From: Actinomycetota bacterium
Lineage (GTDB): Bacteria > Actinomycetota > UBA4738 > HRBIN12
Assembly: GCA_041287635.1 (NCBI GenBank)
Contig: JBGGNG010000149.1
Coordinates: forward strand, 3,424 to 67,423
Length of the DNA stretch: 64,000 bases
Reading direction: 5' to 3'
Under the pieces are notes generated by a model. It searched no databases. It saw nothing but the letters and a program-made list of their open reading frames with translations, and had not been told where the DNA came from. Within the stretch, counting starts at the first letter, position 1; each line of letters begins with the position of its first letter. The position numbers and the translations under genes were made by a program. This document shows, in pieces, positions 31,222 through 44,098 of this stretch.

Positions 31222-31493
31222 ACGTGGTGGCGCACGAGCCGATCCGCACCTGTGTGGGGTGCCGCGAGCGGGGGCGCAAATCGACGCTGGTGCGGCTCGT
31301 CGCCTCGGCCGAGGGGCTGGAGATCGATTGTTCCGGGACGGCGCCGGGTCGTGGCGCGCACGTGCATCCCGACCCGTCGTGCGTCGCGGCCGCGGGCCAG
31401 CCCGGGGTGCTTGGCAGGGCGTTGCGCACGGGTCTGGACGGTGACGAAGTCGGTAGGGTGATGGACGAGATCGAGCGGATGGGAGCGGCGTGA
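31218..31493 (+). CDS. ylxR: YlxR/DUF448 RNA-binding protein
   Basis: RTCVGCRERGRKSTLVRL ... GRGAHVH motif. GTGA overlaps on both sides (nusA, infB). Confidence 0.85.
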   Translation: MNVVAHEPIRTCVGCRERGRKSTLVRLVASAEGLEIDCSGTAPGRGAHVHPDPSCVAAAGQPGVLGRALRTGLDGDEVGRVMDEIERMGAA

Positions 31494-33730
31494 GGGTCCA
31501 CGAACTAGCGAAGGAACTCGGGGTCACCAGCAAGGAGTTGCTGGTGACGTTGGAGCAGATGGGGGTGGCGGGGAAGTCCGCCTCGTCCAGCGTGCCCGAG
31601 GACCTGGTGCCGAGGTTGCGGGCCTCGGGTGGCAAAGCCACAGAGGCGCCGAAGCGTCGCGAGGTGCTCGAGCCGGCTCCGGCCCCACGCAAGCCCAGGG
31701 CCAGGCCGAAGAAGGAAGCCGCACCCACGAAGGAAGCACTCACGATCGGGCCGGCCGCTCCCGAGCAGGAGTCGCCGGCTGCGGCCGAGCCGACCCCGGC
31801 TGCGGCCGAGCCGACTCCGGCAACCGCCTCGACCGCTTCTCCCGTTACGACCGCGCCAACGTCAGGCGGACCCGGCCCCTCGACGCCCGCGTCCGCTCCG
31901 GCGGCGGCATCCACGACAGCTCCGCCTGGGTCGCGTCGGCCTCCCCGTGTCGCACGGACCCCCGCCGAGCCGGAGGTCCCGACGCTTCGCGTCGTCCGAG
32001 GCGCCACCCCGCAGGAGATCGCCGAGAAGCTCGGCAAGGGACCTGCTGACATCGTGAAGATCCTCTTCCTCGCAGGCGAGATGGCCACGGCCACGACGTC
32101 ATTGTCCGACGAGGGGATCGCGCTCGTGGCGAACGAGCTCGGCATGGAACCCGAGATCGTCGGGCTCGAGGACGAGATCGTGGCCGAGGAGCTGGAGGAG
32201 GAGATCGACGAGTCGCTGCTCGTGCCGAGACCCCCGGTGGTCACGGTCATGGGCCACGTCGACCACGGGAAGACGAAGCTGCTCGACTCGATCCGGGAGA
32301 CCGATGTGGTGGCCGGCGAGTTCGGCGGCATCACGCAGCACATCGGCGCCTACCAGGCGCACGTGGGCGAGCGCGACATCACGTTCATCGACACCCCCGG
32401 CCACGAGGCCTTCACCGCGATGCGTGCCCGGGGTGCGCAAGTGACCGACATCGCGGTGCTGGTGGTGGCAGCCGACGACGGGGTGATGCCGCAGACGATC
32501 GAGGCCCTCGACCACGCGAAGGCGGCCGAAGTACCGATCGTCGTCGCCGTGAACAAGGTCGACAAGGAGTCCGCCGACCCGACGCGCGTGCGTCAGCAAC
32601 TCGTCGAGCGCGGGCTCGTGCCGTCGGAGTGGGGCGGTGACACCGAGTTCGTGGATGTCTCCGCCAAGGCGAAGACGAACCTCGACACGCTGCTCGAGAC
32701 GATCCTGCTGGTCGCCGACCTCGAGGAGCTCAAGGGCGTCCCGACCGGCCGCGCGCGCGGCACCGTGATCGAGGCTCACCTCGACAAGGGTCGGGGCCCT
32801 GTGGCGACCGTGCTCGTGCAGCGTGGCAGCCTCGACATCGGCGACGCGCTGGTCTCCGGCACGACCTACTGCAAGATCCGGGCGATGCAGGATGAGAACG
32901 GCGTCACCCTCGATGTGGCGGGACCGTCGAAGCCGGTGCAGCTGCTGGGGTGGGAGGCCGTTCCCGCGTCGGGCGACGAGTTCCGCGAGGTCGCCGACGA
33001 GCGCGAGGCGCGTCACGTCGCCAGCGAGCGCGAAGCGAAGGCTCGTGCGGCCGAACTCGTGATCAGCCGGCCGCCGACCCTCTCCGATCTGCTGCGCCAA
33101 GCCGAGCGCGCCGAGATCCCTGAGCTCAACCTCGTGGTCAAGGCCGACGTGCAGGGCTCGCTGGGCGCCCTGACCGACGCGTTCCTGAAGCTGCCCCAGG
33201 ACGAGGTGCGTGTGAACATCGTGCGCAGTGCTGCGGGCGGCATCACCGAGAACGACGTCTCCCTCGCGATGGCCTCGGACGCGATCGTGATCGGGTTCAA
33301 CGTGCGCCCCGACAAGCAGGCCGTCGATCTCGCCGATCGGGAAGGCGTCGACATCCGTACCTATCGCGTGATCTACGATGCGATCGACGACATCAAGCTG
33401 GCGCTGTCCGGCCTGCTCCCACCCGAGAAGCAGGAGCACGAGCTCGGACAGGCCGAGGTGCGGCAGATCTTCCGCGTCCCCAAGCTCGGGGTCGTGGCGG
33501 GGTGCTACGTCACCCAGGGCACGATCCCGCGCGACGCGCGGGTCCGGCTCGTGCGCGACGGCATCGTGGTCTATCACGGCAGACTGGGGTCGCTGCGCCG
33601 GTTCAAGGACGACGTGAAGGAAGTCGCGTCGGGCTACGAGTGCGGCATCGGCATCGAGGGCTACCAGGACGTCAAGGAACGCGACGTGATCGAGGCCTAC
33701 GAGGTCCGCGAGGTCGCCCGCTCGATCTGA
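31490..33730 (+). CDS. infB: Translation initiation factor IF-2
   Basis: [13 protein letters not shown]-terminus. G-domain [23 protein letters not shown]. 746 aa. Confidence 0.95.
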
Positions 33731-34032
33731 TGTTCGTGGCGCTGCAACGGTTCGACCTGCGCATCCGCGAGAGCCACTCCCTGAAGCAGAAGCGTCACGT
33801 CGTGAAGGCGCTGACCGCCGCGATCCGCCAGCGCTTCAACGTGGGCGTCGCGGAGGTGGACCACCAAGACCTCTGGCAGCGCGCCACGATCGCGGTCGCC
33901 GCGGTCGGAGGCCAGGAGTATCACCTGCGGCACGTCACGAGCGAGATCGAACGGTTCGTCGAGACCTGGCCAGCGGTCGAGATGCTGCATGTCGACCTGA
34001 CCGTGCACACCCCCGACGACCGAGAGCCGTAG
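33730..34032 (+). CDS. DUF503 (YlxP-like) protein
   Basis: 100 aa. LRIRESHSLKQKRHVV motif. The ATG shares 1 nt with the infB TGA. Confidence 0.8.
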   Translation: MFVALQRFDLRIRESHSLKQKRHVVKALTAAIRQRFNVGVAEVDHQDLWQRATIAVAAVGGQEYHLRHVTSEIERFVETWPAVEMLHVDLTVHTPDDREP

Positions 34033-34041
34033 TCTGATGCC

Positions 34042-34398
34042 ATGAGCCAAGGAGCGCGCATGCAGCGGGTCGGCGAGGAGTTCCGCGAGATCCTCGCCGA
34101 GGAGATCCCGAAGTTGAAGGACCCTCGCGTGGGGTTCGTGACCGTCGTCGGCGTGAAGGTCTCACCCGACCTCCGTCACGCGTGGGTCGCGTACACGTCG
34201 ATGGGCGACGACAAGGCGAAGGCCGGCACGCGTGCAGCCCTGCGTTCGGCTCGAGCGCATCTGCGGGCCGTGATCGGGCGGCAGGTGCGCCTCAAGTACC
34301 TGCCGGAGCTCGACTTCGAGGAAGACACGACGTACGAGCAGGGGCAGCGGATCGACGAGTTGATCGCCGGTCTGCGTCGCCTGGAGGACGATCTATGA
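34042..34398 (+). CDS. rbfA: Ribosome-binding factor A
   Basis: 118 aa. RVGEEFREILAEEI...DPRVGFVTV. Confidence 0.9.
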   Translation: MSQGARMQRVGEEFREILAEEIPKLKDPRVGFVTVVGVKVSPDLRHAWVAYTSMGDDKAKAGTRAALRSARAHLRAVIGRQVRLKYLPELDFEEDTTYEQGQRIDELIAGLRRLEDDL

Positions 34399-35375
34399 CA
34401 CCCGATTTCGCGCGGGCCGCCCAGGTGCTCGCCGACGCGACCGAGGTCGCGCTCGCGTGTCACGTGAATCCCGATGCGGACGCCCTCGGGTCGATGCTGG
34501 GCCTCGCCGCCTTCCTGCGATCGCGAGGGGTCGAGACCGTCTGCTCCTACCCGAACGAGCCGCTCGAACCACCACGGTGGGCCGAGCTGTTGCCCGGGGC
34601 CGACCGGTTGGTGCCGGCGAAGGCGTTCCCGAAGGAGCCCGCGGTGATGGTCACGTGCGACTGCGCCGCGTTCGACCGGCTCGGACAGCTGGGGCACGTC
34701 GCGAACCGGGCGGGTGAGGTGATCTGGATCGACCACCATCGGTCGAACGAGGGCCTCGGCTCGATCCCTCTGAACGATCCGCAGGCCTCGTCGACCTGCG
34801 AGATGGTCTTCCGGCTGATCGAAACGATGGGTGGCGAGATGCCCGACGAGACGGCGGTCTGCCTGTACGCGGGCCTCGTCACCGACACGGGCAAGTTCCA
34901 GTACGAGGCCACCACCCCCGAGACGTTGCGCATCGCTGCCCGGCTCCGAGAACACCCCTTCGATCACGCCCGGCTTGTGCAGGCCCTCTACGAGGACAAT
35001 CCCCCCACCTACCTGACGCTCGTCGGCGTGGCGTTGGGGCGGCTCGAGCACGTCGCAGACGCCGACCTGGTCTGGACCTACCTCACCCAGGCCGACCTGC
35101 TGGACGCGGGCGTGCACCCGGCCGAGACCGACGACCTGATCGACGTGATCCGAACGGCGCGCGATGTCGACGTGGCTGCGATCGTGAAGCAACAGAAGGA
35201 CGGCCGCTTCAAGGTGAGCGTGCGTTCGCGAGGCGACCACGATCTCGCGAGGGTCGCAGCTGCCTTCGGCGGCGGCGGGCACCGGCTCGCCGCCGGGTAC
35301 ACCTCGGCCCATGGGCCGGCCGAGACCGTCGAACGCCTCGCAAAGGCCCTCCGGGGCGAGCCCGTGACCGCGTGA
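34395..35375 (+). CDS. nrnA: DHH-family oligoribonuclease/pAp phosphatase NrnA
   Basis: ATGA overlap with rbfA. CHVNPDADALGS, IDHHRSN, GGGH motifs. The upstream part of track ORF 34182 is a shadow of rbfA. Confidence 0.85.
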   Translation: MTPDFARAAQVLADATEVALACHVNPDADALGSMLGLAAFLRSRGVETVCSYPNEPLEPPRWAELLPGADRLVPAKAFPKEPAVMVTCDCAAFDRLGQLGHVANRAGEVIWIDHHRSNEGLGSIPLNDPQASSTCEMVFRLIETMGGEMPDETAVCLYAGLVTDTGKFQYEATTPETLRIAARLREHPFDHARLVQALYEDNPPTYLTLVGVALGRLEHVADADLVWTYLTQADLLDAGVHPAETDDLIDVIRTARDVDVAAIVKQQKDGRFKVSVRSRGDHDLARVAAAFGGGGHRLAAGYTSAHGPAETVERLAKALRGEPVTA

Positions 35376-36244
35376 GTACTGGCCCCGCCACGCCCGGGCG
35401 CGGACCCGAGGGGTTGGTGCTCGTCGACAAGCCGGGTGGCATCACGTCGCACGACGCCGTGGCGAAGGTTCGCCGGGCGCTCGGCACCAAGAAGGTGGGC
35501 CATGCGGGCACCCTCGACCCGATGGCGACCGGACTGCTCGTCATGGGTGTCGGCAGGGCCACACGGCTCCTGCGTTTCCTCGGGGAGCTGCCGAAGACGT
35601 ACGAGGCCACGATGCGCCTCGGCGTCGAGACCACGACCCTCGATTCCGACGGAGAGGTGGTCCGGTCGGCGCCGGTCGCGGTCGACGACGACCGACTGGC
35701 GGAGGTCGTCGGAGCGCTCGTCGGGGAGTCGATGCAGCGGCCGCCCGCGTTCTCGGCCGTCAAGGTGGGGGGTCGCAAGCTCTACGAAGCCGCCCGGAAG
35801 GGGGAGGTGCTCGAGGCGCCCCCCCGCCCGATCATGGTCGACCGCTTCGAGGTGCTCGCTCGTCGCCACGACGACGTCGACGTGGTGATCACCTGCGGCG
35901 GCGGCACGTACGTCCGGGCGCTCGCGGCCGACGTGGGGACGGCTCTCGGGTGTGGGGCTCACCTCAGGGCGCTGCGACGGACCGCGATCGGGCCGTTCGA
36001 GGTCGCCATCGCGACCGACCCGGACGACCCAGGATCACCGCTGCCGATCGAGCGTACGGTCTCCCATCTGCCTTCCGTGCGGCTCGATTCCGAGGAAGCC
36101 GTCGCCGCGGGGCACGGCCGCGTGCTCGCGCCCGCAGGGATCGACGGTCCGTACGCGATCCTCTCCCCCGACGAGCGGCTGGTCGGGGTCTTCCAGGACG
36201 AGGGTCCCCGGTCGAAGCCGCTGGTCGTGTTGGCAGCCGACTGA
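35372..36244 (+). CDS. truB: tRNA pseudouridine-55 synthase
   Basis: GHAGTLDPMATGLL catalytic motif. 290 aa. Confidence 0.9.
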   Translation: MSTGPATPGRGPEGLVLVDKPGGITSHDAVAKVRRALGTKKVGHAGTLDPMATGLLVMGVGRATRLLRFLGELPKTYEATMRLGVETTTLDSDGEVVRSAPVAVDDDRLAEVVGALVGESMQRPPAFSAVKVGGRKLYEAARKGEVLEAPPRPIMVDRFEVLARRHDDVDVVITCGGGTYVRALAADVGTALGCGAHLRALRRTAIGPFEVAIATDPDDPGSPLPIERTVSHLPSVRLDSEEAVAAGHGRVLAPAGIDGPYAILSPDERLVGVFQDEGPRSKPLVVLAAD

Positions 36245-36270: not shown

Positions 36271-37926
36271 TCACTCCAAGCCTGCGAAGAGCGAGTCGAT
36301 CGCCATGGCGACGAGGACGAGGCCGCCGACCACGACGGAGGCCGTGAGGGCGATCCGTTGCAGATCCCAGGTCTGGATCGAGACCGGCTCGTGCGGGGGT
36401 GCGAGCCCCCGGAACCGATCCATGATCGGCCGAGGATCCTCCTTCAGCCGGCCGGAGAGCTCGGTCGGCACCGCCATGCCGACGGCGCAGGCGAAGCCCT
36501 CGGCGATCTCGTCGGGGGTGAACAGGGCGGTGGCGCGCTCGTAGACGCGGTCGGGGTCGGTCTGCAGGGCGAGGGTGAGCATCATGTTCGCGAGATCGAC
36601 CGCCTGCCGCCAGGGCGTCGGACGCACCTCGAGGCCCGAGACGTCGACCAGCTGCAGGTGCCCGCGTTGCACCAGTAGGTTCGCCGGCTTGATGTCGCGG
36701 TGGGCGACACCGATGTCCCAGAACTGGCGGATCAGCCGCAGGCCCTCGTCGATCACGACGTCGTCGATATCGGAGTCGCCGAGGTTCTTCGAGTCCTCGA
36801 AGAACTCCGTCACGAGCATGTACTCGCGGTTCGGCGTGAGCTCGACGATGCCCCACGTACGAGCGACCGTGACGTCGTTCATCGCGAGGTATCGCAATGC
36901 GTAGTCCTCGTACTCGGCCAGCCTGCGTACCGATCCGAAGGGGGTCTCGTCCTCGAGCTTGCCGTAGAGGATCGTGCGCCCCACGCGATACCAGCGGTCG
37001 GCGCGCACGTGGCTGGTCGCGTAGATCTTGCCGAAGACGCGCGATCCGTCGGCGAGCGTCATGCGCAGCGGAGACGATCCCCCCGAGCCCTCGAGACCGA
37101 ACGGTTCCACCTCGGTGACCTCGAGCCCGACCTGGTCGGCCATGGCATGCTTCACGGCCTCGGCTCGCGCCCCTCCGAGGTCGAGGTGCGCGGCATTCCC
37201 GCCACGCTGATAGCTCACGGGGAACGACTCGTCGGGAACGAACCATCGGAACAACGTCTCGGACAGCACCCAGCTGAGGAGCGCCGCGTAGGCGACGTTC
37301 GACGGGTAGTCCGCCGCGAGATACAGCCGCGAGAGCGCCACCAGGACCACCACGATCCACGCCGCGGTCATCGCCCGCTTCCTCAGCCGGCCGGCCGGGG
37401 CCAGCACGAACGGCATCGCGAACACGGTGATCGCGAAGGCGGTCATCGGCCACGACGGGAACCGGAAGTCGGTCGCGTCGATCAGGGGAGCGACGTCGCC
37501 GGGGGGGCGCTGCACATCGAGGAAGGTCAGGACCAGCCAGTCGCTGACCACGAACGTCGCGAGCGCCACGACCAGGTGGCGGAACCGCTTCGTTACGATC
37601 AACACGCCCGCCAGCACGACCCGAAGGAGCTGGACGGCACCGAACGCGGTGAGCATGGCGATCGACGTGGCGATGTCGGTGAGGACCGGGGTACGGATGT
37701 CCTCGAAGGCGCGGAGGACCGCATCGCCGAACGCGTGCGGTTGGTCGGAGTTGGCGACCCAGACCTCGATCGCGACGCCGAGCAGCACCACGCCCACCAG
37801 CGCCCACCACCAACGGGTCGACCCCGATGGGCGCGGGAGAGGTGGTGGCTCGCCCGAGGGCCGACGCTGGCGATGCACGCGACCGGCGGTCGGAGGGGCG
37901 ATCGAGGTCGTGGCGGGCGGCTCCAT
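36271..37926 (-). CDS. Membrane fusion protein: degenerate PAP2-like TM domain + WaaP/Kdo-like kinase domain + C-terminal TM helix (paralogue 1)
   Basis: PAP2-like blocks DVQRPP / FPSWP / SRLYLAADYPSN, with both catalytic His missing. Kinase blocks GLEGSGGSS, VFGKIY, AHRDIKPANLLV, LVDVSG, WRQAVDLANMM. Start at ATG 37926 aligns with the paralogue; the track start 38028 would overlap the divergent gene. Confidence 0.7.
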   Translation of the reverse strand: MEPPATTSIAPPTAGRVHRQRRPSGEPPPLPRPSGSTRWWWALVGVVLLGVAIEVWVANSDQPHAFGDAVLRAFEDIRTPVLTDIATSIAMLTAFGAVQLLRVVLAGVLIVTKRFRHLVVALATFVVSDWLVLTFLDVQRPPGDVAPLIDATDFRFPSWPMTAFAITVFAMPFVLAPAGRLRKRAMTAAWIVVVLVALSRLYLAADYPSNVAYAALLSWVLSETLFRWFVPDESFPVSYQRGGNAAHLDLGGARAEAVKHAMADQVGLEVTEVEPFGLEGSGGSSPLRMTLADGSRVFGKIYATSHVRADRWYRVGRTILYGKLEDETPFGSVRRLAEYEDYALRYLAMNDVTVARTWGIVELTPNREYMLVTEFFEDSKNLGDSDIDDVVIDEGLRLIRQFWDIGVAHRDIKPANLLVQRGHLQLVDVSGLEVRPTPWRQAVDLANMMLTLALQTDPDRVYERATALFTPDEIAEGFACAVGMAVPTELSGRLKEDPRPIMDRFRGLAPPHEPVSIQTWDLQRIALTASVVVGGLVLVAMAIDSLFAGLE

Positions 37927-38015
37927 CCGGCCGAGCCTACCGGAGCGAGGCTGGGCCAGCCGTCCGCGCACGCCATGTCGAGGTCCTTCCTCGTGGAGCA
38001 GGCTATCCTCACCCG

Positions 38016-39131
38016 ATGACCGAGCCACCTGCTGCCGTCGTGGAGGACCCGACGGCCGACCCCGCCGCGAAGAAGCACTCGCCGACCCGCCGGATCGTCT
38101 CGGGGGTCATCTCCCTCCTCATCGTCGGCGGCATCTTCGTCTTCGCGATCCCGAAGGTGGCCGACTACTCCGCGGTCTGGAAGGCGTTCGAGTCGCTCAC
38201 GGGCCTCGAGCTGCTCTCCCTGTTCGCCGCCACGGTCTTCAACCTGTTCACCTACTGGTGGGCGAACATGGCGGCGCTGCCCGGGCTGAAGCTGAGTCGG
38301 GCGGCGGTGCTCACCCAGACGACCACCTCGGTCGCGAACACGTTGCCGGGCGGCGGCGCGATCGCCGTCGGCCTCACGTACACGATCTTGAAGTCGTGGG
38401 GGTTCACGGGCACCGACGTCGCGCTGTACGTCGGCGTGACCGGCATCTGGAACATCTTCGTTAAGCTCGCGCTCCCGGTGATCTCACTCGTCTTCCTCGT
38501 GATCGCCGGCGAGAGTGGATCTGCGTACGTGGTCGCGGCCATCGTCGGCGTGATCGTGCTGGCGATCGCGGTGGGCCTGCTCTCGGCGCTCTTCGTGAGC
38601 GAGCGGTTCGCCCGCCGCATCGGTGATGGGTTCGGCCGGGTCCTCTCGTTCTTCATGAAGCTGTTCCGCAAGCCCCCGAGGACCGACACGGGAGATCGAG
38701 CCGTACAGTTCCGGGCCGACACGATCGGGCTGGTGGAGCGTCGGTGGGTGCGTCTGAGCCTCACGACGATCCTGAGCCAGGTCGCCCTCTACTTCGTGCT
38801 GCTGCTCTCCCTGCGGAACATGGGGGTGTCCGAGCAAGAGGTGAGCGCCGCCCAGGTGTTCGCGGTGTTCTCGTTCAGCCGCTTGCTCTCGGCTGTGCCG
38901 ATCACGCCGGGTGGGGTCGGGGTGATCGACCTCGGCTACATCGGTGGCCTCGCGGCCGCCGCGCCGGATGGTGAGAAGGCGGCGATCGTCGCCGCCGTAC
39001 TGATGTTCCGCGCACTGACCTACGGCATCCAGATACCGCTCGGTGCGTTCACCTACCTGATCTGGAAGGGGAAGAAGGATTGGCGGCGCGAGTCGCCGAC
39101 CGACGTCGAGTCGGAACCCTCCCCCGCCTAG
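38016..39131 (+). CDS. UPF0104 / lysyl-PG-synthase-TM (MprF flippase-like) membrane protein, stand-alone
   Basis: 371 aa, about 8 TM segments. C-terminal motif VPITPGGVGVIDLGYIGGL resembles the PGG.G..E signature of this family. Confidence 0.65.
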   Translation: MTEPPAAVVEDPTADPAAKKHSPTRRIVSGVISLLIVGGIFVFAIPKVADYSAVWKAFESLTGLELLSLFAATVFNLFTYWWANMAALPGLKLSRAAVLTQTTTSVANTLPGGGAIAVGLTYTILKSWGFTGTDVALYVGVTGIWNIFVKLALPVISLVFLVIAGESGSAYVVAAIVGVIVLAIAVGLLSALFVSERFARRIGDGFGRVLSFFMKLFRKPPRTDTGDRAVQFRADTIGLVERRWVRLSLTTILSQVALYFVLLLSLRNMGVSEQEVSAAQVFAVFSFSRLLSAVPITPGGVGVIDLGYIGGLAAAAPDGEKAAIVAAVLMFRALTYGIQIPLGAFTYLIWKGKKDWRRESPTDVESEPSPA

Positions 39132-39145
39132 GTCGCCCGTCCTGG

Positions 39146-39859
39146 TCAGGACAGTCGAGGATCGAGAGGGTCTCCGGGGGGGGCCTGAGGCCGAGCGATC
39201 ACCCCGCGAGCACTGAGCGCGTTCGTCACCTCTGTCACCAGGGCGGCCGACCCGAGCGCGATGCCGGTGCCGAGCAGCACCCCGGTCAACACGTCGGAGA
39301 ACCAGTGAGCCGACAGGTACACGCGCGAGAGCGCCATCACGTACGTGAACCCGATCGCGAGTAGCTCCCACTCCCGACGCCGTGGCCCGGGGGGGAAGAA
39401 CACGAGCACCAAGGCGACGGCCAGCGCGGCGCCGGCGACGGCATGCCCCGACGGGAAGGAGAACCCGTTCGTCTCCACGAGGGGGTTCGGGGGACGCCCG
39501 CGGTGGAAGAAGATCTTCAGCCACGTGAGCAGGGCTTCGGACGCGACCCAGACCAGCACGAAGGTGGAGAGGGCAACCCAGCGCCGGCGGAGGAGCAGCC
39601 ACCCCGCGACCAGGATCCTCAGGGGGATCGTGACGAGGCCGCCGCCGACGATGCTCAGGAACGTGAAGAGGCCTGTCAGCGTGCCGACCCGCACGTCGTC
39701 GGCCCAGCGCTCGACCGTGGCGTCGAACTCGCCGATGAACGGCACCGTGGTCAGCGGCGCCAGCTCCTCGGGATGACGACCCACGGCGACGAGCATGAAC
39801 ACGAGACACGCGAGCAGCCCCAGGGAGAACCTGAAGGCGCGCCGGTGATCGGTCAGCAT
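39146..39859 (-). CDS. PAP2 family lipid-phosphate phosphatase (motifs intact)
   Basis: KIFFHRGRP, PSGH and SRVYLSAHWFSD make the complete C1-C2-C3 acid-phosphatase signature. 237 aa, multi-TM. Confidence 0.8.
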   Translation of the reverse strand: MLTDHRRAFRFSLGLLACLVFMLVAVGRHPEELAPLTTVPFIGEFDATVERWADDVRVGTLTGLFTFLSIVGGGLVTIPLRILVAGWLLLRRRWVALSTFVLVWVASEALLTWLKIFFHRGRPPNPLVETNGFSFPSGHAVAGAALAVALVLVFFPPGPRRREWELLAIGFTYVMALSRVYLSAHWFSDVLTGVLLGTGIALGSAALVTEVTNALSARGVIARPQAPPGDPLDPRLS

Positions 39860-39869
39860 CGTGGTGAGC

Positions 39870-40436
39870 CTATCCGGCGCACGGTGGCGCTCCGGCCCCG
39901 CAGACCGTGAGGTCGAGCTCGCGGCGGACCTCGGCGACGATCGCCGCCCGGGGCAGCGTCGACACCGCGCGGTCGGCCTCGATCACGAGGGCGGGCTCCG
40001 ACCCCCCGGCGAACCGATAGCGGGAGACGATGCACCCTCCGTCGAACACGAGCATCCGCGATCCGACGAACGGATCGAGGCTCTCGGGCAACTGGAACGT
40101 GCGCATGCCGATCTCGTCCGGCGCCGGGGGAACCTCCACAGCTTGGCTGACGTCGCAGCGAGCCATCAGCTCGACCTCGACGGCATGGACCCCGGCCCGA
40201 TCGTGGTCGAGCCAGAGCGTGGTCCCGCTGTCGCGCACGAGCGACCCGGCGAACCGCCACCCGATCGGCAGCTCCGCGATGCAAGGGATCCGAGTGGCCG
40301 AGGGCACCGACTGTGCCTCCAGGACGAGGATCGAGCCATCGAGATGGGCACAGACCGGCTGTTGGGGGTTGTCCGCCGAACACGCCACGGTCACGGACAT
40401 CAGCGTGATCGAGAGCGCGATCGCGGGCCACCTCAT
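39870..40436 (-). CDS. Cys-rich lipoprotein of unknown function
   Basis: MRWPAIALSITLMSVTVAC lipobox. The ATG overlaps the upstream stop (ATGA at 40433-40436). 8 Cys in the mature part. Confidence 0.55.
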   Translation of the reverse strand: MRWPAIALSITLMSVTVACSADNPQQPVCAHLDGSILVLEAQSVPSATRIPCIAELPIGWRFAGSLVRDSGTTLWLDHDRAGVHAVEVELMARCDVSQAVEVPPAPDEIGMRTFQLPESLDPFVGSRMLVFDGGCIVSRYRFAGGSEPALVIEADRAVSTLPRAAIVAEVRRELDLTVCGAGAPPCAG

Positions 40437-42121
40437 GCAAATACCGCCCAGTTCGATGCGATCAGCCCGAGCACGATGAACGCCACGAGCACCACCCCGA
40501 TCGTGAGCAGGATGCGCCGGACGCTCCACCGCTGGATCTTCATCGGCGCACGCTCGGGAGCGAGCGCCTGGAACTCGGTCAAGAGGTCGCGGCCGTCCTC
40601 CTTCATCATCGTGCGCAGTTGGGTGGGGCTCGCCACGCCTCGCGTCGCCGAGAAGGCCTCCGCGATCTCGTCGGGGGAGAACAGGCGCAAGGCGTGCTCG
40701 TACACGCGCTGTGCGTCGGAGCGCAGGCCGAGGACCATCATCATGTTCGCGAGGTCGACGGCCTGACGCCAGGGGGAGGGGCGCACCTGCACGAAGAAGA
40801 CGTCGATCAGTTTCAGGTCTCCGTCGAGCACCATGAGGTTGGCTGGCTTGATGTCACGGTGGGCCAGGCCCTCGTCCCACATCTCGCGCACGAGCTGCAG
40901 CCCTTGATCGATCACGCGGTCGTCGATCTCCGCCTCGCCGATCTCCACGGCGCCGTCGAAGAACTCCATCACGATCATGTATTCGCGTTCGGGGGTGATC
41001 TCGACGACGCCGTAAGGGCGCGGCACGGGCAGGTCGAGATCCTCCATCAGCCTGAGGGTGTAGTCCTCGTACTCCACGAACCGGCGCACGGTCTGGAAGG
41101 GCGACTCGTCCTCGAGCTTGCCGTACAGGATCGTGCGTCCGAGCTTGTACCAGCGGTCGGCTCGCACGTGGCTCTTCGCGTACAGCTTCGCGAACAGCAC
41201 CCGCTCCGTGCCGGATCCCTCCTCGCGCACCCGCAGCCGCAACGGCGTCGAGCCGCCCGATCCTTCCAACCCCACGGGTTGTACGTCGAGGACGCGGTAT
41301 CCGAGCTGGTCGCGGACGGCGGTGGCGATGGCCTCGCCCCGTCGCCCACCGACGTCCAGATGCGCCGCCTTCCCGCGCCGATAGGTCACGGGGAAGACGT
41401 CGTTGGGCGCGAACCAGCGGAACGCCGTGAGCCCGATCGCGACGCCGAGCACGGCGCCGAAGATCGCATCGGTCGGGTGATCGATCGCCAGGTACACCCG
41501 GGCGAGGCCGACGACGACGAGCAGACCCCCGGTCGCCCATTTCGCGGCATCCCGCCAGCGCCCGTGTGGGATCAACGAAAACGTGATGCCGACCAGCGTG
41601 ACCGCGAGAGCGGCGAGTCCCCTCGAGGGCATCGAGAAGTCCTGCCACGGTCCGATCGTGACCACGTCGAGCGGCCGAGGCCGGTGGATCCCCAGCGTGA
41701 GTCCGTACGTCACGAAAGCCTCGACGATCAAGGCACCGAGGAACACCAGCAGGTGCCGCCATCGGCGGACGACGATCAAGGTCGCGATCGTTCCCCATCG
41801 CAGGAAGCGGATGATCCACCGTGAGGTGAGGAGCGCGATCGTCTCCATGACGTCGGTGAGGGGAGCGGTGCGCCACGATGCGAACCACCGGAGGACCGCC
41901 GTGTCGATCCGATGGAAGAGGCGTTCCGACGGCTCGAACAAGACGACACCGATCACCGTGGCCACGAAGTAGGCGGCCATGAACAGCCAGAACTTCCCGC
42001 TCCGCCCGAGCTCCCGCGGCAGGGGCGGCGCCTCGCCGGAGGGGCGCCGTCGGACGTCGGGGCCGAGCAGGCGGCGCCGGCGCTCGTGCGTGGTCTCGTT
42101 CGTCGGCTCGGCGGTGTCCAT
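40433..42121 (-). CDS. Membrane fusion protein: degenerate PAP2-like TM domain + WaaP/Kdo-like kinase domain + C-terminal TM helix (paralogue 2)
   Basis: 562 aa. PAP2-like GIHRPRP / MPSRG / ARVYLAIDHPTD. Kinase GLEGSGGST, LFAKLY, AHRDIKPANLMV, LIDVFF, WRQAVDLANMM. Purine-rich RBS GAGGGAAGAGAG upstream. Confidence 0.7.
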   Translation of the reverse strand: MDTAEPTNETTHERRRRLLGPDVRRRPSGEAPPLPRELGRSGKFWLFMAAYFVATVIGVVLFEPSERLFHRIDTAVLRWFASWRTAPLTDVMETIALLTSRWIIRFLRWGTIATLIVVRRWRHLLVFLGALIVEAFVTYGLTLGIHRPRPLDVVTIGPWQDFSMPSRGLAALAVTLVGITFSLIPHGRWRDAAKWATGGLLVVVGLARVYLAIDHPTDAIFGAVLGVAIGLTAFRWFAPNDVFPVTYRRGKAAHLDVGGRRGEAIATAVRDQLGYRVLDVQPVGLEGSGGSTPLRLRVREEGSGTERVLFAKLYAKSHVRADRWYKLGRTILYGKLEDESPFQTVRRFVEYEDYTLRLMEDLDLPVPRPYGVVEITPEREYMIVMEFFDGAVEIGEAEIDDRVIDQGLQLVREMWDEGLAHRDIKPANLMVLDGDLKLIDVFFVQVRPSPWRQAVDLANMMMVLGLRSDAQRVYEHALRLFSPDEIAEAFSATRGVASPTQLRTMMKEDGRDLLTEFQALAPERAPMKIQRWSVRRILLTIGVVLVAFIVLGLIASNWAVFA

Positions 42122-42152: not shown

Positions 42153-43067
42153 CTACTCGGCGGTGTTCCCGAGGTGGTGATCGTCCAGCCATCTGGCCGC
42201 AGCGACCGCCGGAGCGACGCCCGAGCTGACGAGGGCGTTGAGCGCTCGGAGCTCGGTCGTGGTCAGCTCGGCCGATACCGCGTCGATCGCCTCTGTCAGT
42301 CCGGGACCGAAGCGCTCGATAGCGTCACGTCGCACGAGCGGCGTCACGTTCTCCGCGGGCTGTAGTCGTCGATCGTCCCGCAGCAGCACGAGCCCATGCT
42401 GGGCGAGGCTGCCGTCGCTCGTGAAGAGCACCCCGACGTCCACCGTTCCCTGCTGGACCGCCGCTGCCGTGACCGGTCCACCCGCGTCGAGGGGCAGGAA
42501 CGACGCGAATTCCAGCCCGTAGGTCTTGGCGAAGCCCAGCAGGCAGAGTTCGCGCTCCGGGCATTCAGGGGGACCACCGATCGTCATCGCGGACGCGACG
42601 CTCCGCAGGTCGCTCACGCTGCGCAGCCCATGCTCCGTCGCGGTCCGGGTCGTGACCACGAGCCCGTTCCTGCTCTGCGCGGGAGCTGGCTCGAGCGCTT
42701 CGATACCGCGCGAGCCGAGCGAGACTCGCAGCGTCGCCAGCGACGAGTCTGGGTCAACCGAAGGCTGGCCGCCCAGGAAGGCGACGGCGCTCCCCGCGTA
42801 GTCGGGCACGACCTCGATCAATCCACGCTCGAGCGCCGGCAGCACCACCTCGCGCGTCCCGACGCGACGGGCGTGTCGAACCTCGAAGCCCTGCGAACGC
42901 AGTGCGCCGGCGTAGACCTCGGCGAGCGTCTCGCTCTCGTCGAAGTCGAACGAGGCGATCGTGATCGCGTCGTCGTCGAGCGTGTGGTCCACGGGTGCGC
43001 TCGACCCACACGCGGCGATCGACGCCGCGATCACGATCAGGAGCACGCCCAAAGCCTTCCCGCCCAT
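42153..43067 (-). CDS. OpuAC-family (glycine betaine/choline-type) substrate-binding lipoprotein, orphan
   Basis: Lipobox LIVIAASIAAC. ITIASFDFDESETLAEVYAGALRSQGFEV...GTREVVLPALERGLIEVVPDYAGS matches the osmoprotectant SBP signature. No permease or ATPase gene in the window. Confidence 0.75.
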   Translation of the reverse strand: MGGKALGVLLIVIAASIAACGSSAPVDHTLDDDAITIASFDFDESETLAEVYAGALRSQGFEVRHARRVGTREVVLPALERGLIEVVPDYAGSAVAFLGGQPSVDPDSSLATLRVSLGSRGIEALEPAPAQSRNGLVVTTRTATEHGLRSVSDLRSVASAMTIGGPPECPERELCLLGFAKTYGLEFASFLPLDAGGPVTAAAVQQGTVDVGVLFTSDGSLAQHGLVLLRDDRRLQPAENVTPLVRRDAIERFGPGLTEAIDAVSAELTTTELRALNALVSSGVAPAVAAARWLDDHHLGNTAE

Positions 43068-43153
43068 GCCGAGAACGGTACTCCAGCGACCGGCGGGGGG
43101 TCGTTGTGGCGTCGCGTGGGACGGGCGGATCGCGTCGGCTAGGCTCTCGCGCG

Positions 43154-44098
43154 ATGCGGATCGTGCACGGGTTCGATGCGTTGCCGTTGCCCGAGAAGGC
43201 TTCCGTCGTGACGGTCGGGTTCTTCGACGGCGTCCACCTCGGACACCGATCGGTGATCGATACGACCGTCTCCCGGGCACGCGATCGCGGGATCCCGTCG
43301 ATCGGGATCACGTTCGACCGTCATCCTCGAGAGATTCTCACGCCGGGCAGCGAGCCTCGCCTACTGACCACGGTGGATCGGAAAGCGGGCCTCATCGAAG
43401 CGAGCGGGCTCGACGTGCTGGTCGTGCTCGAGTTCACCCAGGCGTTCTCGCGGATCCCGGCCGAGGACTTCGTTCGGACCGTGCTCGTCCAAGGCGTCCA
43501 CGCACGTCATGCAGCGATGGGTGCGAACTTCACGTTCGGCTTCAAGGCCGAGGGCACGGTGGCGACGCTGCCCGAGATGGGCGCCCCGTACGGCCTGACC
43601 GCGGAAGGGGTGCCCTTGTTCGAGCTCGGCGGCCGGACGGTGTCGTCGTCGTCGATCCGTGACGCCCTCGCTGGGGGCGATCTGACGTGGCCGGCGAAGG
43701 CGCTCGGGCGGCGCTTCGTGCTCGACGGCGAGGTGACCTCGGGGCACGGCCGGGGGAAGGGGCTCGGCTACCCGACCGCCAACCTGCGCACGTGGCCTCG
43801 GCTGCTCCTGCCCGGACAGGGGATCTACGCGGGCGTGGCTGAACTCCATGGGCGGCGCTACAGGACCGCGATCGATGTCGGCACGAACCCCACGTTCGGC
43901 GTCGAACCCTTGCACGTGGAGGCGTTCCTGCTCGACTTCGAGGGCGACGAGCTCCAAGGCGAGCCGCTCGCGATCGAGTTCTGGGAACGCCTGCGCGACG
44001 AGATCCGCTACGACTCGATCGACGAGCTGATCGCGGCGATCGCCGACGACGTCGACCGCACGCGGGCCATCGTGCCCGACGATCAAATCGGCCGATGA
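43154..44098 (+). CDS. ribF: Bifunctional riboflavin kinase / FMN adenylyltransferase
   Basis: VVTVGFFDGVHLGHRSV, GHGRGKGLGYPTANL. 314 aa from ATG 43154. Confidence 0.9.
   Translation: MRIVHGFDALPLPEKASVVTVGFFDGVHLGHRSVIDTTVSRARDRGIPSIGITFDRHPREILTPGSEPRLLTTVDRKAGLIEASGLDVLVVLEFTQAFSRIPAEDFVRTVLVQGVHARHAAMGANFTFGFKAEGTVATLPEMGAPYGLTAEGVPLFELGGRTVSSSSIRDALAGGDLTWPAKALGRRFVLDGEVTSGHGRGKGLGYPTANLRTWPRLLLPGQGIYAGVAELHGRRYRTAIDVGTNPTFGVEPLHVEAFLLDFEGDELQGEPLAIEFWERLRDEIRYDSIDELIAAIADDVDRTRAIVPDDQIGR

What the first reader, a model, noticed from the sequence alone, without database searches (positions are those of the whole stretch)
40433..42121. Dead-phosphatase / live-kinase architecture in both paralogous fusions
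Seen: the stand-alone PAP2 (39146..39859) has the full signature K(X6)RP / PSGH / SR(X5)H(X3)D, as KIFFHRGRP, PSGH, SRVYLSAHWFSD. At the aligned positions, paralogue 2 has GIHRPRP / PSRG / ARVYLAIDHPTD, and paralogue 1 (36271..37926) has DVQRPP / PSWP / SRLYLAADYPSN. Both therefore lack the C1 Lys and the C2 His, and both carry Asp where the C3 nucleophilic His should be. The kinase halves keep every residue expected for phosphotransfer. These are a Gly-rich loop (GSGGS), a Lys in (F/A)K(I/L)Y, HRDIKPAN, and a metal-binding Asp in (V/I)DV. No DFG...APE activation segment follows. Instead there is R-P-(T/S)-P-W-R-x-x-V-D-L-A, which from memory resembles the R.P..WR...DL block after the IDL motif of E. 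coli WaaP. Inference: the PAP2-like domain has been repurposed as a lipid-phosphate binding or sensing scaffold that presents substrate, or a signal, to an atypical kinase.
Basis: partly seen in the sequence, partly recalled or inferred. Interest (0 to 1): 0.7.

Follow-up and report, generated by a model that had tools for sequence, protein, structure and literature searches.

The report
Dead lipid phosphatase fused to kinase
Two neighbouring genes in this soil actinobacterium each encode a membrane protein whose lipid-phosphatase-like part has lost its catalytic residues while its kinase part has kept them; they belong to a large, unstudied family that looks like a new type of bacterial cell-surface receptor kinase.

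Summary
In both paralogues (40433-42121 and 36271-37926, minus strand) the PAP2 domain lacks the C1 Lys, the C2 His and the C3 nucleophilic His (replaced by Asp). The kinase half keeps the Gly-loop, Lys, HRDxKxxN and metal-binding Asp. This pattern holds across the family: 0 of 61 full-length representatives have either His, and about 95% keep the kinase residues.

The kinase is an orphan protein-kinase-like domain. Its N-lobe is RIO/Bud32-like, its catalytic loop is Hanks-like, and it has no activation segment. The WaaP resemblance is not specifically supported.

Topology places the dead PAP2 pocket outside the cell and the kinase inside, so "presenting substrate to the kinase" is unlikely, while "sensing" remains plausible. 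Context supports this:
- an orphan OpuAC-type binding lipoprotein lies upstream;
- a Cys-rich lipoprotein lies downstream, and in half of the relatives it is fused after the C-terminal membrane helix;
- an active PAP2 and an MprF-like flippase domain protein are often adjacent.

Some relatives carry N-terminal NarL-type response regulators or STAND-TPR modules.

Best reading: a transmembrane receptor-kinase module for envelope or lipid status. The ligand and substrate are unknown. I found no literature on the family, and databases label its members "phosphatase PAP2 family protein".

The parts
42153..43067 (-). Orphan OpuAC/OsmF-type solute-binding lipoprotein, directly upstream of paralogue 2 (31-bp gap). 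Its start is inferred at MGGKAL...IAAC (lipobox).
   Evidence: Pfam OpuAC E 2.2e-41. NCBIfam OsmF 79.6 bits, far below cut-off. PDB relatives are OpuBC/OpuCC/ProX/EgtUC. A homologue lies immediately upstream on the same strand in 40 of 70 loci and on the opposite strand in 5 more. It is the second most conserved neighbour cluster, in 46 loci. No ABC permease or ATPase is nearby.
40433..42121 (-). Paralogue 2: dead-PAP2 / live-kinase membrane protein, 562 aa.
42014..42052 (-). Conserved cytoplasmic N-terminal motif RRRPSGEAPPLPR (residues 24-36), just before TM1.
   Evidence: R25, R26, P27 and P35 are invariant; S28, G29, P32, P33 and L34 are at least 90% conserved in A1. The motif is present in both paralogues and at the junction in all fused architectures. 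It is disordered in the AF2 model.
41402..42004 (-). Catalytically dead PAP2-like six-helix membrane domain (residues 40-240). The degenerate motifs are RPRP (147-150), PSRG (165-168) and ARVYLAID (207-214).
   Evidence: Pfam PAP2 E 1.8e-10. Profile against 5jki E 1.2e-10. Motif register. Conservation. Helices from the AF2 model.
40547..41347 (-). Atypical protein-kinase-like domain (residues 259-525). It carries GSGGS 287-291, K312, E352, HRDIKPAN 421-428, D440 and WRQAVD 451-456.
   Evidence: Pfam RIO1 26.3 bits (cut-off 22) and Pkinase 24.6 bits (cut-off 31.7). Foldseek hits to ePK and RIO structures. Invariant columns. Residue census.
40454..40522 (-). C-terminal transmembrane helix (residues 534-556) that returns the chain to the outside.
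   Evidence: AF2 helix 534-556. In relatives it is followed by the fused ecto domain.
39870..40436 (-). Cys-rich extracytoplasmic lipoprotein (188 aa), translationally coupled to paralogue 2 by an ATGA overlap. It is the split-off equivalent of the C-terminal ecto domain of ~725-aa relatives.
   Evidence: 48% identity, E 2e-39, to residues 570-723 of P0241. Orthologues are 188-190 aa. C19 and six further Cys are invariant. AF2 pLDDT 88.9. No significant PDB fold match. It lies downstream of the fusion in 64 of 73 loci: 33 fused in frame and 33 separate.
39146..39859 (-). Stand-alone active-type PAP2 phosphatase (full K-x6-RP / PSGH / SR-x5-H-x3-D signature), last gene of the operon.
   Evidence: Pfam PAP2 E 8.3e-18. 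5jki E 6e-12 with all motifs aligned. A homologue is present in 28 of 64 loci. It is fused N-terminally to the dead PAP2 in P0281.
38013..39131 (+). MprF-type flippase-like membrane protein (LPG_synthase_TM only). It is divergent from paralogue 1 and convergent with the PAP2 gene. The start is inferred from orthologue lengths.
   Evidence: Pfam PF03706 E 5e-19 and TIGR00374. Present in 29 of 64 loci. In Geodermatophilaceae URHB0062 it lies on the same strand between the ecto gene and the PAP2 gene.
36271..37926 (-). Paralogue 1: second dead-PAP2 / live-kinase protein (551 aa), with a more degenerate PAP2 half and no binding-protein or ecto partner of its own.
   Evidence: A paralogue-1-type copy is found only in the closest relatives (L001, L003, L004, L009).

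Best explanation
The two genes encode receptor-like transmembrane kinases that sit at the centre of a conserved actinobacterial envelope module.

Proposed layout:
- A cytoplasmic, Arg-rich N-terminal tail carries the motif RRPSGExPPLP.
- It leads into a six-helix PAP2 fold whose outward-facing pocket has lost the Lys/His/His catalytic set. In paralogue-2-type proteins the pocket keeps three or four Arg and has a conserved Asp/Glu in place of the nucleophile.
- The chain re-enters the cytoplasm as a catalytically competent atypical kinase, with a RIO/Bud32-like N-lobe, a Hanks-type HRDIKPAN catalytic loop and no activation loop.
- It leaves again through one TM helix. In half of the relatives that helix carries a disulfide-rich ecto domain. 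Here the ecto domain is a separate, translationally coupled lipoprotein.

Proposed mechanism. The dead PAP2 pocket, the ecto lipoprotein and the orphan OpuAC-type binding lipoprotein together form the extracytoplasmic sensor. The ligand would be a lipid-phosphate-type head group and/or a small solute. Their state is transmitted through the helical bundle to the kinase. The kinase then phosphorylates cytoplasmic targets, or acts as an ATP-driven switch. Likely targets are its own N-terminal tail and regulators of the kind fused to it in relatives (a NarL-type response regulator, STAND-TPR). The output may also control the co-encoded active PAP2 and flippase-like protein.

Status of each step:
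- Shown: loss of the phosphatase residues, retention of the kinase residues, the domain order, the fusions and the neighbourhood.
- Inferred from homology and several mutually consistent constraints: the topology.
- Inferred only: the ligand, the substrates and the direction of signalling.
For: 1. Dead PAP2 and live kinase hold across the family.
2. The degenerate motif is itself conserved, so the domain is under selection and not decaying. The kinase half is the more conserved: 57% against 34% identity between the paralogues, and 68% against 42% across alignment A1.
3. Topology. The N-tail has 10 Arg/Lys. The AF2 model has six PAP2 helices, then the kinase, then a TM helix. Cytoplasmic REC-HTH or STAND-TPR modules are fused at the N-terminus in seven representative clusters. 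An ecto domain with invariant Cys pairs follows the C-terminal TM, or is a lipoprotein.
4. Gene fusions tie the operon genes together. The ecto domain is fused in 33 of 66 loci that have it. P0281 has an active PAP2, the dead PAP2, the kinase, a TM helix and the ecto domain in one chain.
5. The neighbourhood is conserved across distant Actinomycetota, including cultured Geodermatophilaceae, in different genomic surroundings. The binding protein is upstream in 45 of 70 loci, and a PAP2 and a flippase-like gene each appear in about 45% of loci.
6. The binding protein is an orphan, with no transporter genes nearby. The same holds for GlnH in the GlnH-GlnX-PknG system (PMC6069109, PMC9769921; review PMC8050422).
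7. The Lys of HRDIKPAN is the Ser/Thr protein-kinase signature (Hanks-Hunter subdomain VIb, from established knowledge). The catalytic loop aligns with TTK and other ePKs.
Against: - There is no experimental data on any member.
- The kinase lacks the activation segment, P+1 loop and APE that bind peptide substrates. Its longest similarity is to RIO/Bud32, which act largely as ATPases.
- No FHA protein, PP2C phosphatase or obvious substrate is encoded nearby.
- The active PAP2 and the flippase-like gene in the module would fit a metabolic lipid cycle equally well.
- Paralogue 1 has lost even the pocket arginines, so ligand binding in that pocket cannot be general.
- The AF2 model gives no confident position for the N-tail, and I could not inspect the pocket coordinates.
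- The binding protein is missing from about a third of loci.
Confidence: 0.45

Rival explanations
1. Metabolic lipid kinase. The kinase domain phosphorylates a membrane lipid, polyprenol or lipid-linked sugar at the inner leaflet, as the small-molecule kinases WaaP/KdkA/APH do. The flippase-like protein moves the product outward and the active PAP2 removes the phosphate. The dead PAP2 only anchors the kinase or holds the lipid tail.
For: The module contains an active PAP2 and an MprF-type flippase domain protein. The kinase has no peptide-binding activation segment and gives weak APH and Kdo hits (24 and 12 of 60 members). A PKL kinase next to a PAP2 has been proposed as a lipid module in Bacteroidota (bioRxiv 10.64898/2026.09.18.752743).
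Against: The HRDxKxxN Lys is typical of Ser/Thr protein kinases, not of APH/ChoK/Kdo-type small-molecule kinases (established knowledge). Fusions to a NarL-type response regulator and to STAND-TPR modules, an orphan binding protein and an ecto domain are hallmarks of signalling, not of a pathway enzyme. The PAP2 and flippase genes are absent from more than half of the loci, whereas the binding protein and ecto domain are more constant.
Confidence: 0.2
2. Pseudoenzyme regulator of the active PAP2 and/or flippase. The dead PAP2 pairs within the membrane with the co-encoded live PAP2, in the way pseudophosphatase-phosphatase pairs do. The kinase-like domain works as a RIO/Bud32-style ATPase switch that gates the partner's activity, without passing a signal to other proteins.
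For: P0281 places a live PAP2 directly in front of the dead one in a single polypeptide. A live PAP2 follows the ecto gene in 20 of 64 loci. The longest kinase similarity is to RIO1 and Bud32, above the RIO1 Pfam cut-off for paralogue 2. A few relatives have a dead kinase as well (P0332, HGG for HRD), which shows that scaffold functions exist in the family.
Against: A live PAP2 is missing from most loci (28 of 64 have one). About 95% of representatives keep all phosphotransfer residues. This model leaves the N-terminal regulator fusions unexplained.
Confidence: 0.2
3. The PAP2 domain is still a phosphatase or phosphotransferase that uses substitute residues, for example Asp214 as nucleophile or the shifted His215.
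For: An acidic residue at the position of the nucleophilic His is conserved: D 77 and E 28 of 106 orthologues, and D 37 of 55 non-gap representatives. Arg residues of C1 and C3 are kept in paralogue-2-type proteins. His215 directly follows Asp214 in paralogue 2.
Against: His215 is not conserved (H 41, A 30, Q 13 of 106). The acidic residue is A, N or Q in several representatives. The C2 general-acid His and the C1 Lys are absent from all members. Paralogue 1 lacks most pocket residues. As far as I know, no PAP2 enzyme works without the His-His pair (established knowledge of the PAP2 mechanism).
Confidence: 0.04

Closest known systems
Bacterial membrane PAP2 lipid-phosphate phosphatases (B. subtilis PgpB/YodM, PDB 5jki; E. 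coli PgpB; BcrC; LpxE)
   Same: Homologous six-helix fold. The family profile matches 5jki at E 1.2e-10 over about 175 residues with C1/C2/C3 in register. The RP of C1, the PS of C2 and the R of C3 are kept in paralogue 2.
   Different: The C1 Lys, C2 His and C3 His are absent from all members. The domain is fused to a kinase. The databases' label 'phosphatase PAP2 family protein' is therefore misleading.
Eukaryotic PLPPR/PRG (plasticity-related gene) proteins: catalytically inactive members of the lipid phosphate phosphatase family (from my own knowledge, not tested here)
   Same: A PAP2/LPP fold that has lost catalytic residues and is thought to act in lipid-phosphate signalling or binding rather than hydrolysis.
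   Different: Eukaryotic proteins with no kinase domain and of independent origin.
GlnH-GlnX-PknG system of Corynebacterium and Mycobacterium (PMC6069109, PMC9769921)
   Same: An orphan solute-binding lipoprotein encoded next to a membrane protein and a Ser/Thr kinase. The external ligand controls cytoplasmic phosphorylation.
   Different: There the membrane component (GlnX, a four-helix-bundle protein) and the kinase are separate proteins, the binding protein is of the amino-acid type, and PknG is a full Hanks kinase with TPR and rubredoxin domains. Here the membrane part is a dead PAP2 covalently joined to an atypical kinase.
M. tuberculosis MviN/MurJ (Rv3910): polytopic membrane domain, pseudokinase, TM helix, extracellular domain (PMC12599244)
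   Same: The same overall layout: a lipid-handling membrane domain, a cytoplasmic kinase-fold domain with a deleted activation loop, one TM helix, then an ecto domain.
   Different: In MviN the membrane domain is the active part (a lipid II flippase) and the kinase is dead. Here it is the reverse. The two are not related in sequence beyond the kinase fold.
RIO / Bud32 atypical kinases
   Same: No activation segment. The alphaC-to-metal-Asp region aligns (Pfam RIO1 26.3 bits, above cut-off 22, residues 337-441; TIGR03724 Bud32 E 3e-4 to 1e-7). There is an insertion between beta3 and alphaC.
   Different: The catalytic loop is HRDIKPAN, not HGDLSEYN or HGDLTTSN. The protein is membrane-embedded. 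There is no RIO N-terminal domain. Only 31 of 60 members match RIO1 at E<0.01.
   Same: A small PKL domain without an activation loop. There is a loose R-P-x-x-W-R...D-L likeness after the metal-binding Asp.
   Different: Pfam Kdo matches only 12 of 60 members at E<0.01, all below the cut-off. Paralogue 2 gives no Kdo hit at E<=0.1, and paralogue 1 gives E 0.05. The motif spacing differs by indels, and the HRD+2 Lys is absent from WaaP-type loops.
AfsK-AfsR and PknK (kinase plus STAND/TPR regulator) and Ser/Thr phosphorylation of response regulators in Actinobacteria (from my own knowledge)
   Same: Relatives carry STAND NTPase-TPR or NarL-type REC-HTH modules on the same polypeptide as the kinase.
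   Different: Those systems use canonical Hanks kinases and have no PAP2 domain.

Membership tests
PAP2 superfamily (PF01569) | Sequence and fold homology to the PAP2 core | tested here: met
   Pfam 41.1 bits against cut-off 27.2 for paralogue 2. Family profile against 5jki E 1.2e-10. 45 of 60 members match. Paralogue 1 alone is below cut-off at 21.8 bits, but it hits the window's own PAP2 at E 2.5e-8.
PAP2 superfamily (catalytically active members) | C1 motif K-x6-R-P | tested here: not met
   The Lys position is T in paralogue 2 and L or a gap in paralogue 1, and is never K in the 61 sequences examined. RP is retained in paralogue-2-type proteins.
PAP2 superfamily (catalytically active members) | C2 motif P-S-G-H (general-acid His) | tested here: not met
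   PSRG and PSWP. His in 0 of 61 (P 29, A 8 and others).
PAP2 superfamily (catalytically active members) | C3 motif S-R-x5-H-x3-D (nucleophilic His) | tested here: not met
   His is replaced by Asp in both paralogues. The 61 sequences have D 37, E 4, A 6, N 3, Q 2 and H 0 at this position.
Hanks-type (eukaryotic-like) Ser/Thr protein kinases (PF00069) | Gly-rich loop, beta3 Lys, alphaC Glu, HRDxKxxN | tested here: met
   GSGGS, K312, E352 and HRDIKPAN are invariant or nearly so. The catalytic loop aligns with TTK and other ePKs. The alphaC Glu assignment rests on the alignment and the model only.
Hanks-type (eukaryotic-like) Ser/Thr protein kinases (PF00069) | DFG ... activation loop ... APE segment, and a Pfam score above the gathering threshold | tested here: not met
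   IDVFF replaces DFG. Only 16 residues separate D440 from D456, and there is no APE. Pkinase scores 24.6 bits against cut-off 31.7.
RIO kinases (PF01163) | A match to the RIO domain model above cut-off | tested here: inconclusive
   Paralogue 2 scores 26.3 bits against cut-off 22, but the match covers only model positions 43-148 of 187. Paralogue 1 gives no hit, and 31 of 60 members match at E<0.01.
RIO kinases (PF01163) | RIO catalytic loop H-x-D-L-S-E-x-N and a soluble architecture with a RIO N-terminal domain | tested here: not met
   The loop is HRDIKPAN. The domain sits between a six-TM PAP2 domain and a TM helix. The RIO consensus is recalled from established knowledge.
Kdo / WaaP LPS kinases (PF06293) | A match to the Kdo/WaaP model | tested here: not met
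   Paralogue 2 gives no hit at E<=0.1. Paralogue 1 scores 13.5 bits against cut-off 21.3. 12 of 60 members match at E<0.01.
Binding-protein-coupled receptor Ser/Thr kinase systems (GlnH-GlnX-PknG type) | An orphan extracytoplasmic binding protein encoded with a membrane transducer and a kinase | tested here: met
   An OpuAC-type lipoprotein lies directly upstream in 45 of 70 loci, with no ABC permease or ATPase nearby.
Binding-protein-coupled receptor Ser/Thr kinase systems (GlnH-GlnX-PknG type) | Ligand-dependent control of kinase activity, and a defined substrate | not testable with these tools
   This needs biochemistry or genetics.

The most novel reading that the evidence does not exclude
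The family may be a previously unrecognised class of bacterial lipid-receptor kinases. In this reading an enzymatically dead PAP2 pocket on the outer membrane face keeps Arg residues for a phosphate and has gained a conserved Asp/Glu that could pair with an amine. It would read the level of a lipid head group such as polyprenyl-(pyro)phosphate, PG-phosphate or a zwitterionic/aminoacylated phospholipid. It would do so together with an orphan OpuAC-type binding lipoprotein and a new-fold Cys-rich lipoprotein. The fused kinase would then phosphorylate its own RRPSGE tail or attached regulators, tuning the co-encoded active PAP2 and MprF-like flippase. The whole would be a self-contained circuit for membrane-lipid homeostasis.
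Probability: 0.2. Interest if true: 0.8.

Novelty: new variant of a known kind. Interest (0 to 1): 0.6.

Why it matters
What activates bacterial Ser/Thr kinases is largely unknown, and very few bacterial receptors for membrane lipids have been described. This family offers a defined, widespread and testable candidate. It has at least 524 clusters at 50% identity with E<=1e-30 and thousands of members at 90% clustering. It occurs in soil Actinomycetota and Acidimicrobiia and in cultivable Geodermatophilaceae and Blastococcus.

The family combines a pseudo-phosphatase used as a transmembrane sensor with a live atypical kinase. Natural gene fusions already point to its partners: the binding protein, the ecto lipoprotein, the active PAP2 and the flippase-like protein.

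It also corrects an annotation. These proteins are labelled 'phosphatase PAP2 family protein' or 'Bud32/RIO1', yet they can hardly be phosphatases.

Tried and rejected
- Foldseek of the full-length model against PDB. It returned only generic ePK and RIO kinase hits with TM about 0.44, so it could not separate Hanks, RIO and WaaP.
- Foldseek of the ecto-domain model. The best E-value was 5e-3 and TM was at most 0.37, with only faint PsbP/Mog1/RseB-like similarity. I make no fold assignment.
- Pfam, NCBIfam and PADLOC scans of the ecto protein gave nothing. PADLOC hits to the kinase are generic catalytic-loop matches (PD-T4-6, about 18-26 bits), so I rejected an anti-phage role.
- Rfam and tRNA scans of the whole window were empty.
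- Literature searches found no description of a PAP2-kinase fusion. The nearest item is a PKL kinase merely adjacent to a PAP2 in Segetibacter, which is a different family. The Lipocone paper mentions PAP2 only in passing.
- A first single-linkage clustering of all six-frame ORFs collapsed into one cluster because of high-GC shadow ORFs. I replaced it with a GC3-GC2-filtered gene set.
- A regex hit for a C3-like motif in paralogue-1 orthologues lies in the first kinase helix (ARAEAVKHAMAD), not in the PAP2 domain.
- I considered whether His215, next to Asp214, could rescue catalysis. I rejected this because the residue is not conserved.
- I considered whether the 319-aa fragment P0390, with a live PAP2 joined directly to the kinase, is an ancestral form. 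Its TM6 is truncated at the junction and it is a single partial metagenomic protein, so it may be a deletion or an assembly chimera. This is unresolved.

Full report
**1. What is in the sequence**

The window is about 70% G+C and is 96% identical at protein level to an uncultured soil Actinomycetes MAG (L003). Between truB (35372-36244, +) and ribF lie seven genes:
- Paralogue 1, 36271-37926 (-), 551 aa. Orthologue lengths confirm the internal Met start.
- A flippase-like protein carrying only the MprF transmembrane domain, ~38013-39131 (+).
- An active-type PAP2, 39146-39859 (-).
- A 188-aa Cys-rich protein, 39870-40436 (-).
- Paralogue 2, 40433-42121 (-), 562 aa.
- An OpuAC-type binding protein, 42153-43067 (-).

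The last four minus-strand genes are packed with gaps of 31, -4 (ATGA overlap) and 10 bp. They form an operon: binding protein, fusion, ecto protein, PAP2.

**2. Check of the observation**

- The C1 Lys is T in paralogue 2 and absent in paralogue 1.
- C2 PSGH becomes PSRG and PSWP.
- The C3 His becomes Asp in both.

An independent profile search gives the same register: a 60-sequence family profile hits 5jki at E 1.2e-10, pairing 'erprp' with ERVRP, 'PSrp' with PSGH and 'arlylavda' with SRVYLGVHF. The PAP2-like halves also hit the window's own PAP2 directly (E 2.5e-8 and 3.6e-5).

The domain is PAP2-related, the substitutions do not disappear under a better register, and the kinase residues hold. 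The only slip is that the residue before the beta3 Lys of paralogue 1 is Gly.

**3. The pattern is family-wide and under selection**

Both paralogues have thousands of relatives at 90% clustering. There are 524 clusters at 50% identity with E<=1e-30.

In 106 orthologues of paralogue 2 the degenerate sites are themselves conserved:
- R147-P-R149-P in at least 102 of 106.
- P165-S166 in at least 104 of 106.
- R167 in 89 of 106.
- R208 in 102 of 106.
- An acidic residue at the former nucleophile position: D 77, E 28.

In 59 full-length 50% representatives plus both paralogues, His is never found at C2 or C3 and Lys never at C1. In the same 61 sequences K312, E352, H421, R422, D423, K425, N428 and D440 are each kept in 57 to 60. 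PSGH occurs in only 2 of 390 retrieved proteins: in an additional live PAP2 in P0281, and in the fragment P0390.

The kinase half is much more conserved than the PAP2 half: 57% against 34% identity between the paralogues, and 68% against 42% across the alignment. Paralogue 1's lineage has lost even the pocket arginines and keeps little more than FPS and the Asp.

**4. The kinase**

The AF2 model (pLDDT 78.5) shows a two-lobed kinase fold at residues 259-520. Foldseek finds ePKs and RIO kinases with equal, modest scores.

At sequence level it is an orphan:

| Pfam family | Members matched (of 60, E<0.01) | Note |
|---|---|---|
| Pkinase | 58 | nearly all below cut-off |
| RIO1 | 31 | paralogue 2 is just above cut-off but covers only half the model |
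| APH | 24 | |
| Kdo/WaaP | 12 | all below cut-off |

The best NCBIfam hits are Bud32. The catalytic loop AHRDIKPANLMV is of the Hanks Ser/Thr type, with Lys at HRD+2, and aligns with TTK and other ePKs. From memory it is nearly identical to the HRDVKPANIMI loop of M. tuberculosis PknB.

After the metal-binding Asp440 only 16 residues precede Asp456 of the next long helix. The activation loop, P+1 loop and APE are therefore missing, as in RIO, Bud32 and Kdo kinases. A family-specific, almost invariant insertion (HVRADRWYKxGRTILYGxLEDE, residues 318-339) lies between beta3 and alphaC.

It is not a specific relationship.

**5. Topology**

Several independent constraints agree.
- The N-terminal 43 residues hold 10 Arg/Lys. 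The loops predicted to be cytoplasmic (118-123, 184-194, 238-262) hold 11 more. The predicted outer loops hold six or seven, three of which are PAP2-motif arginines (read directly from the sequence, using the helices).
- Relatives carry cytoplasmic modules at the N-terminus. Two representative clusters have a complete NarL-type response regulator (REC plus LuxR HTH; NarL E 5.6e-36 for P0258). Five have a STAND NTPase with TPR repeats.
- The kinase needs cytoplasmic ATP.
- After the kinase comes a single TM helix. In many relatives this is followed by a domain with six invariant Cys. Here that domain is a separate protein with a signal sequence and an invariant lipobox-type Cys19.

With the N-terminus in and the kinase in, the PAP2 part must cross the membrane an even number of times. 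This matches the canonical six-helix PAP2 topology, whose C1-C3 motifs face outward (known for PgpB-type enzymes; from established knowledge). The dead pocket and the kinase active site therefore lie on opposite sides of the membrane. Direct hand-over of a substrate from pocket to kinase is not plausible. Transmembrane signalling is.

**6. Partners revealed by fusions and neighbourhood**

The 188-aa ORF downstream of paralogue 2 is 48% identical (E 2e-39) to the C-terminal extension of ~725-aa relatives.

| Feature | Count |
|---|---|
| Genome loci examined, from distinct species | 80 |
| Ecto domain follows the kinase | 64 of 73 loci with enough flank |
| Ecto domain fused in frame / separate gene | 33 / 33 |
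| OpuAC-type binding protein directly upstream | 45 of 70 (40 on the same strand) |
| Active PAP2 in the flank | 28 of 64 |
| Flippase-like gene in the flank | 29 of 64 |

P0281 joins an active PAP2, the dead PAP2, the kinase, a TM helix and the ecto domain in one chain.

In cultured Geodermatophilaceae URHB0062 the binding protein, fusion, ecto, flippase-like and PAP2 genes all occur together next to phaC. That is a different genomic setting from the truB-ribF site used here.

An annotation-free clustering of flank genes found no other widely shared partner. In particular there is no ABC permease or ATPase for the binding protein, and no FHA or PP2C gene.

The ecto domain models confidently (pLDDT 88.9) as a beta-sheet/helix domain without a significant PDB match.

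**7. Interpretation**

The most economical reading is a receptor-type kinase module.
- The sensor is extracytoplasmic and consists of the dead PAP2 pocket, the ecto lipoprotein and the orphan binding lipoprotein.
- The transducer is the PAP2 helical bundle.
- The output is a cytoplasmic kinase that remains catalytically competent.

The conserved N-tail RRPSGExPPLP, a basic-x-Ser motif next to TM1, is a candidate autophosphorylation or docking site. The regulators fused in front of it in relatives are candidate substrates, by analogy with AfsK-AfsR and with Ser/Thr phosphorylation of response regulators in Actinobacteria (my own knowledge).

The system resembles GlnH-GlnX-PknG in logic (PMC6069109, PMC9769921). 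It resembles MviN-pseudokinase-TM-ecto in layout (PMC12599244), but with the live and dead roles swapped.

I give this reading about 0.45. Two rivals remain open at about 0.2 each: a metabolic lipid kinase working with the PAP2 and the flippase, and an ATP-driven pseudoenzyme regulator of the live PAP2. Residual phosphatase activity is unlikely (about 0.04).

**8. Novelty**

I found no paper describing this architecture. Public annotations are generic and partly wrong: 'phosphatase PAP2 family protein', 'RIO1 family regulatory kinase/ATPase', 'Bud32'. Each component belongs to a known superfamily, and receptor Ser/Thr kinases with binding-protein partners are known. I therefore rate it a new variant of a known kind rather than categorically new.

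**9. Limits**

- All functional statements are inferences from sequence, predicted structure and comparative genomics.
- I could not access model coordinates to inspect the pocket or the position of the N-tail.
- I could not run HHpred-type profile-profile comparisons against kinase families or multimer predictions.
- Gene calls in the 80 loci are approximate (tblastn and GC3-based ORF selection).

Noticed in passing
window 39870-40529 (-): The mechanically listed 219-aa GTG ORF is really a 188-aa gene starting at the ATG at 40436, in an ATGA overlap with the stop codon of paralogue 2. It has a signal-peptide-like N-terminus with an invariant Cys19 (lipoprotein type) and six more invariant Cys. 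Its confident AF2 model has no significant PDB fold match, so it may be a new extracytoplasmic domain.
   Followed up: yes
window 42014-42052 (-) and 37831-37866 (-): A conserved cytoplasmic motif, RRPSGExPPLP(R), lies immediately before TM1 in both paralogues and at the junction of every fused architecture seen (P0258, P0281, P0294). It is a basic-x-Ser site that could be an autophosphorylation, pseudosubstrate or docking element.
   Followed up: partly
window 41354-41365 (-), residues 253-256 of paralogue 2: An invariant A-H-L-D sits inside the otherwise low-confidence linker between TM6 and the kinase. The linker is 72% identical across the family, more conserved than the PAP2 domain. Its function is unknown.
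   Followed up: no
window 41798-41800 (-), Arg108 of paralogue 2 (also R84 and R122): An invariant arginine lies inside the predicted second membrane helix of the PAP2-like domain. This is unusual for a TM segment and is not part of any PAP2 motif.
   Followed up: no
window 42153-43067 (-): The OpuAC/OsmF-like binding lipoprotein has no ABC permease or ATPase nearby, here or in the related loci. By rough alignment to 5uve, two of the four aromatic-cage positions of betaine/choline binders appear replaced (NGL for N-T-W, and AEN for V-Y-Q). Its ligand may therefore not be a classical betaine.
   Followed up: partly
P0332 (relative, 545 aa): Some family members have lost the kinase residues as well (HGGIGP for HRDIKP, and a degenerate Gly-loop). 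They would be a double pseudoenzyme, with both the PAP2 and the kinase dead.
   Followed up: partly
P0390 (relative, 319-aa fragment): This single metagenomic fragment has an intact PAP2 signature (K-x6-RP, PSGH, SR-x5-H-x3-D) joined directly to the family's kinase through a truncated TM6. It could be a recombinant between tandem live and dead PAP2 copies, or an assembly chimera.
   Followed up: partly
window 37927-38012 and 43068-43153: There are two short (~86 bp) divergent intergenic regions, one between paralogue 1 and the flippase-like gene and one between the OpuAC gene and ribF. They are likely bidirectional promoter regions. I did not analyse them.
   Followed up: no
window 31490-36244 and 42995-44098; L002, L069: In close relatives the module is inserted into the otherwise conserved nusA-infB-(DUF503)-rbfA-nrnA-truB / ribF-rpsO-pnp housekeeping cluster. 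In Geodermatophilaceae it lies next to phaC. The module therefore moves as a unit.
   Followed up: partly
window 1-64000: There is no tRNA gene and no Rfam family at gathering threshold anywhere in the 64-kb window. In particular there is no FMN riboswitch near ribF.
   Followed up: yes
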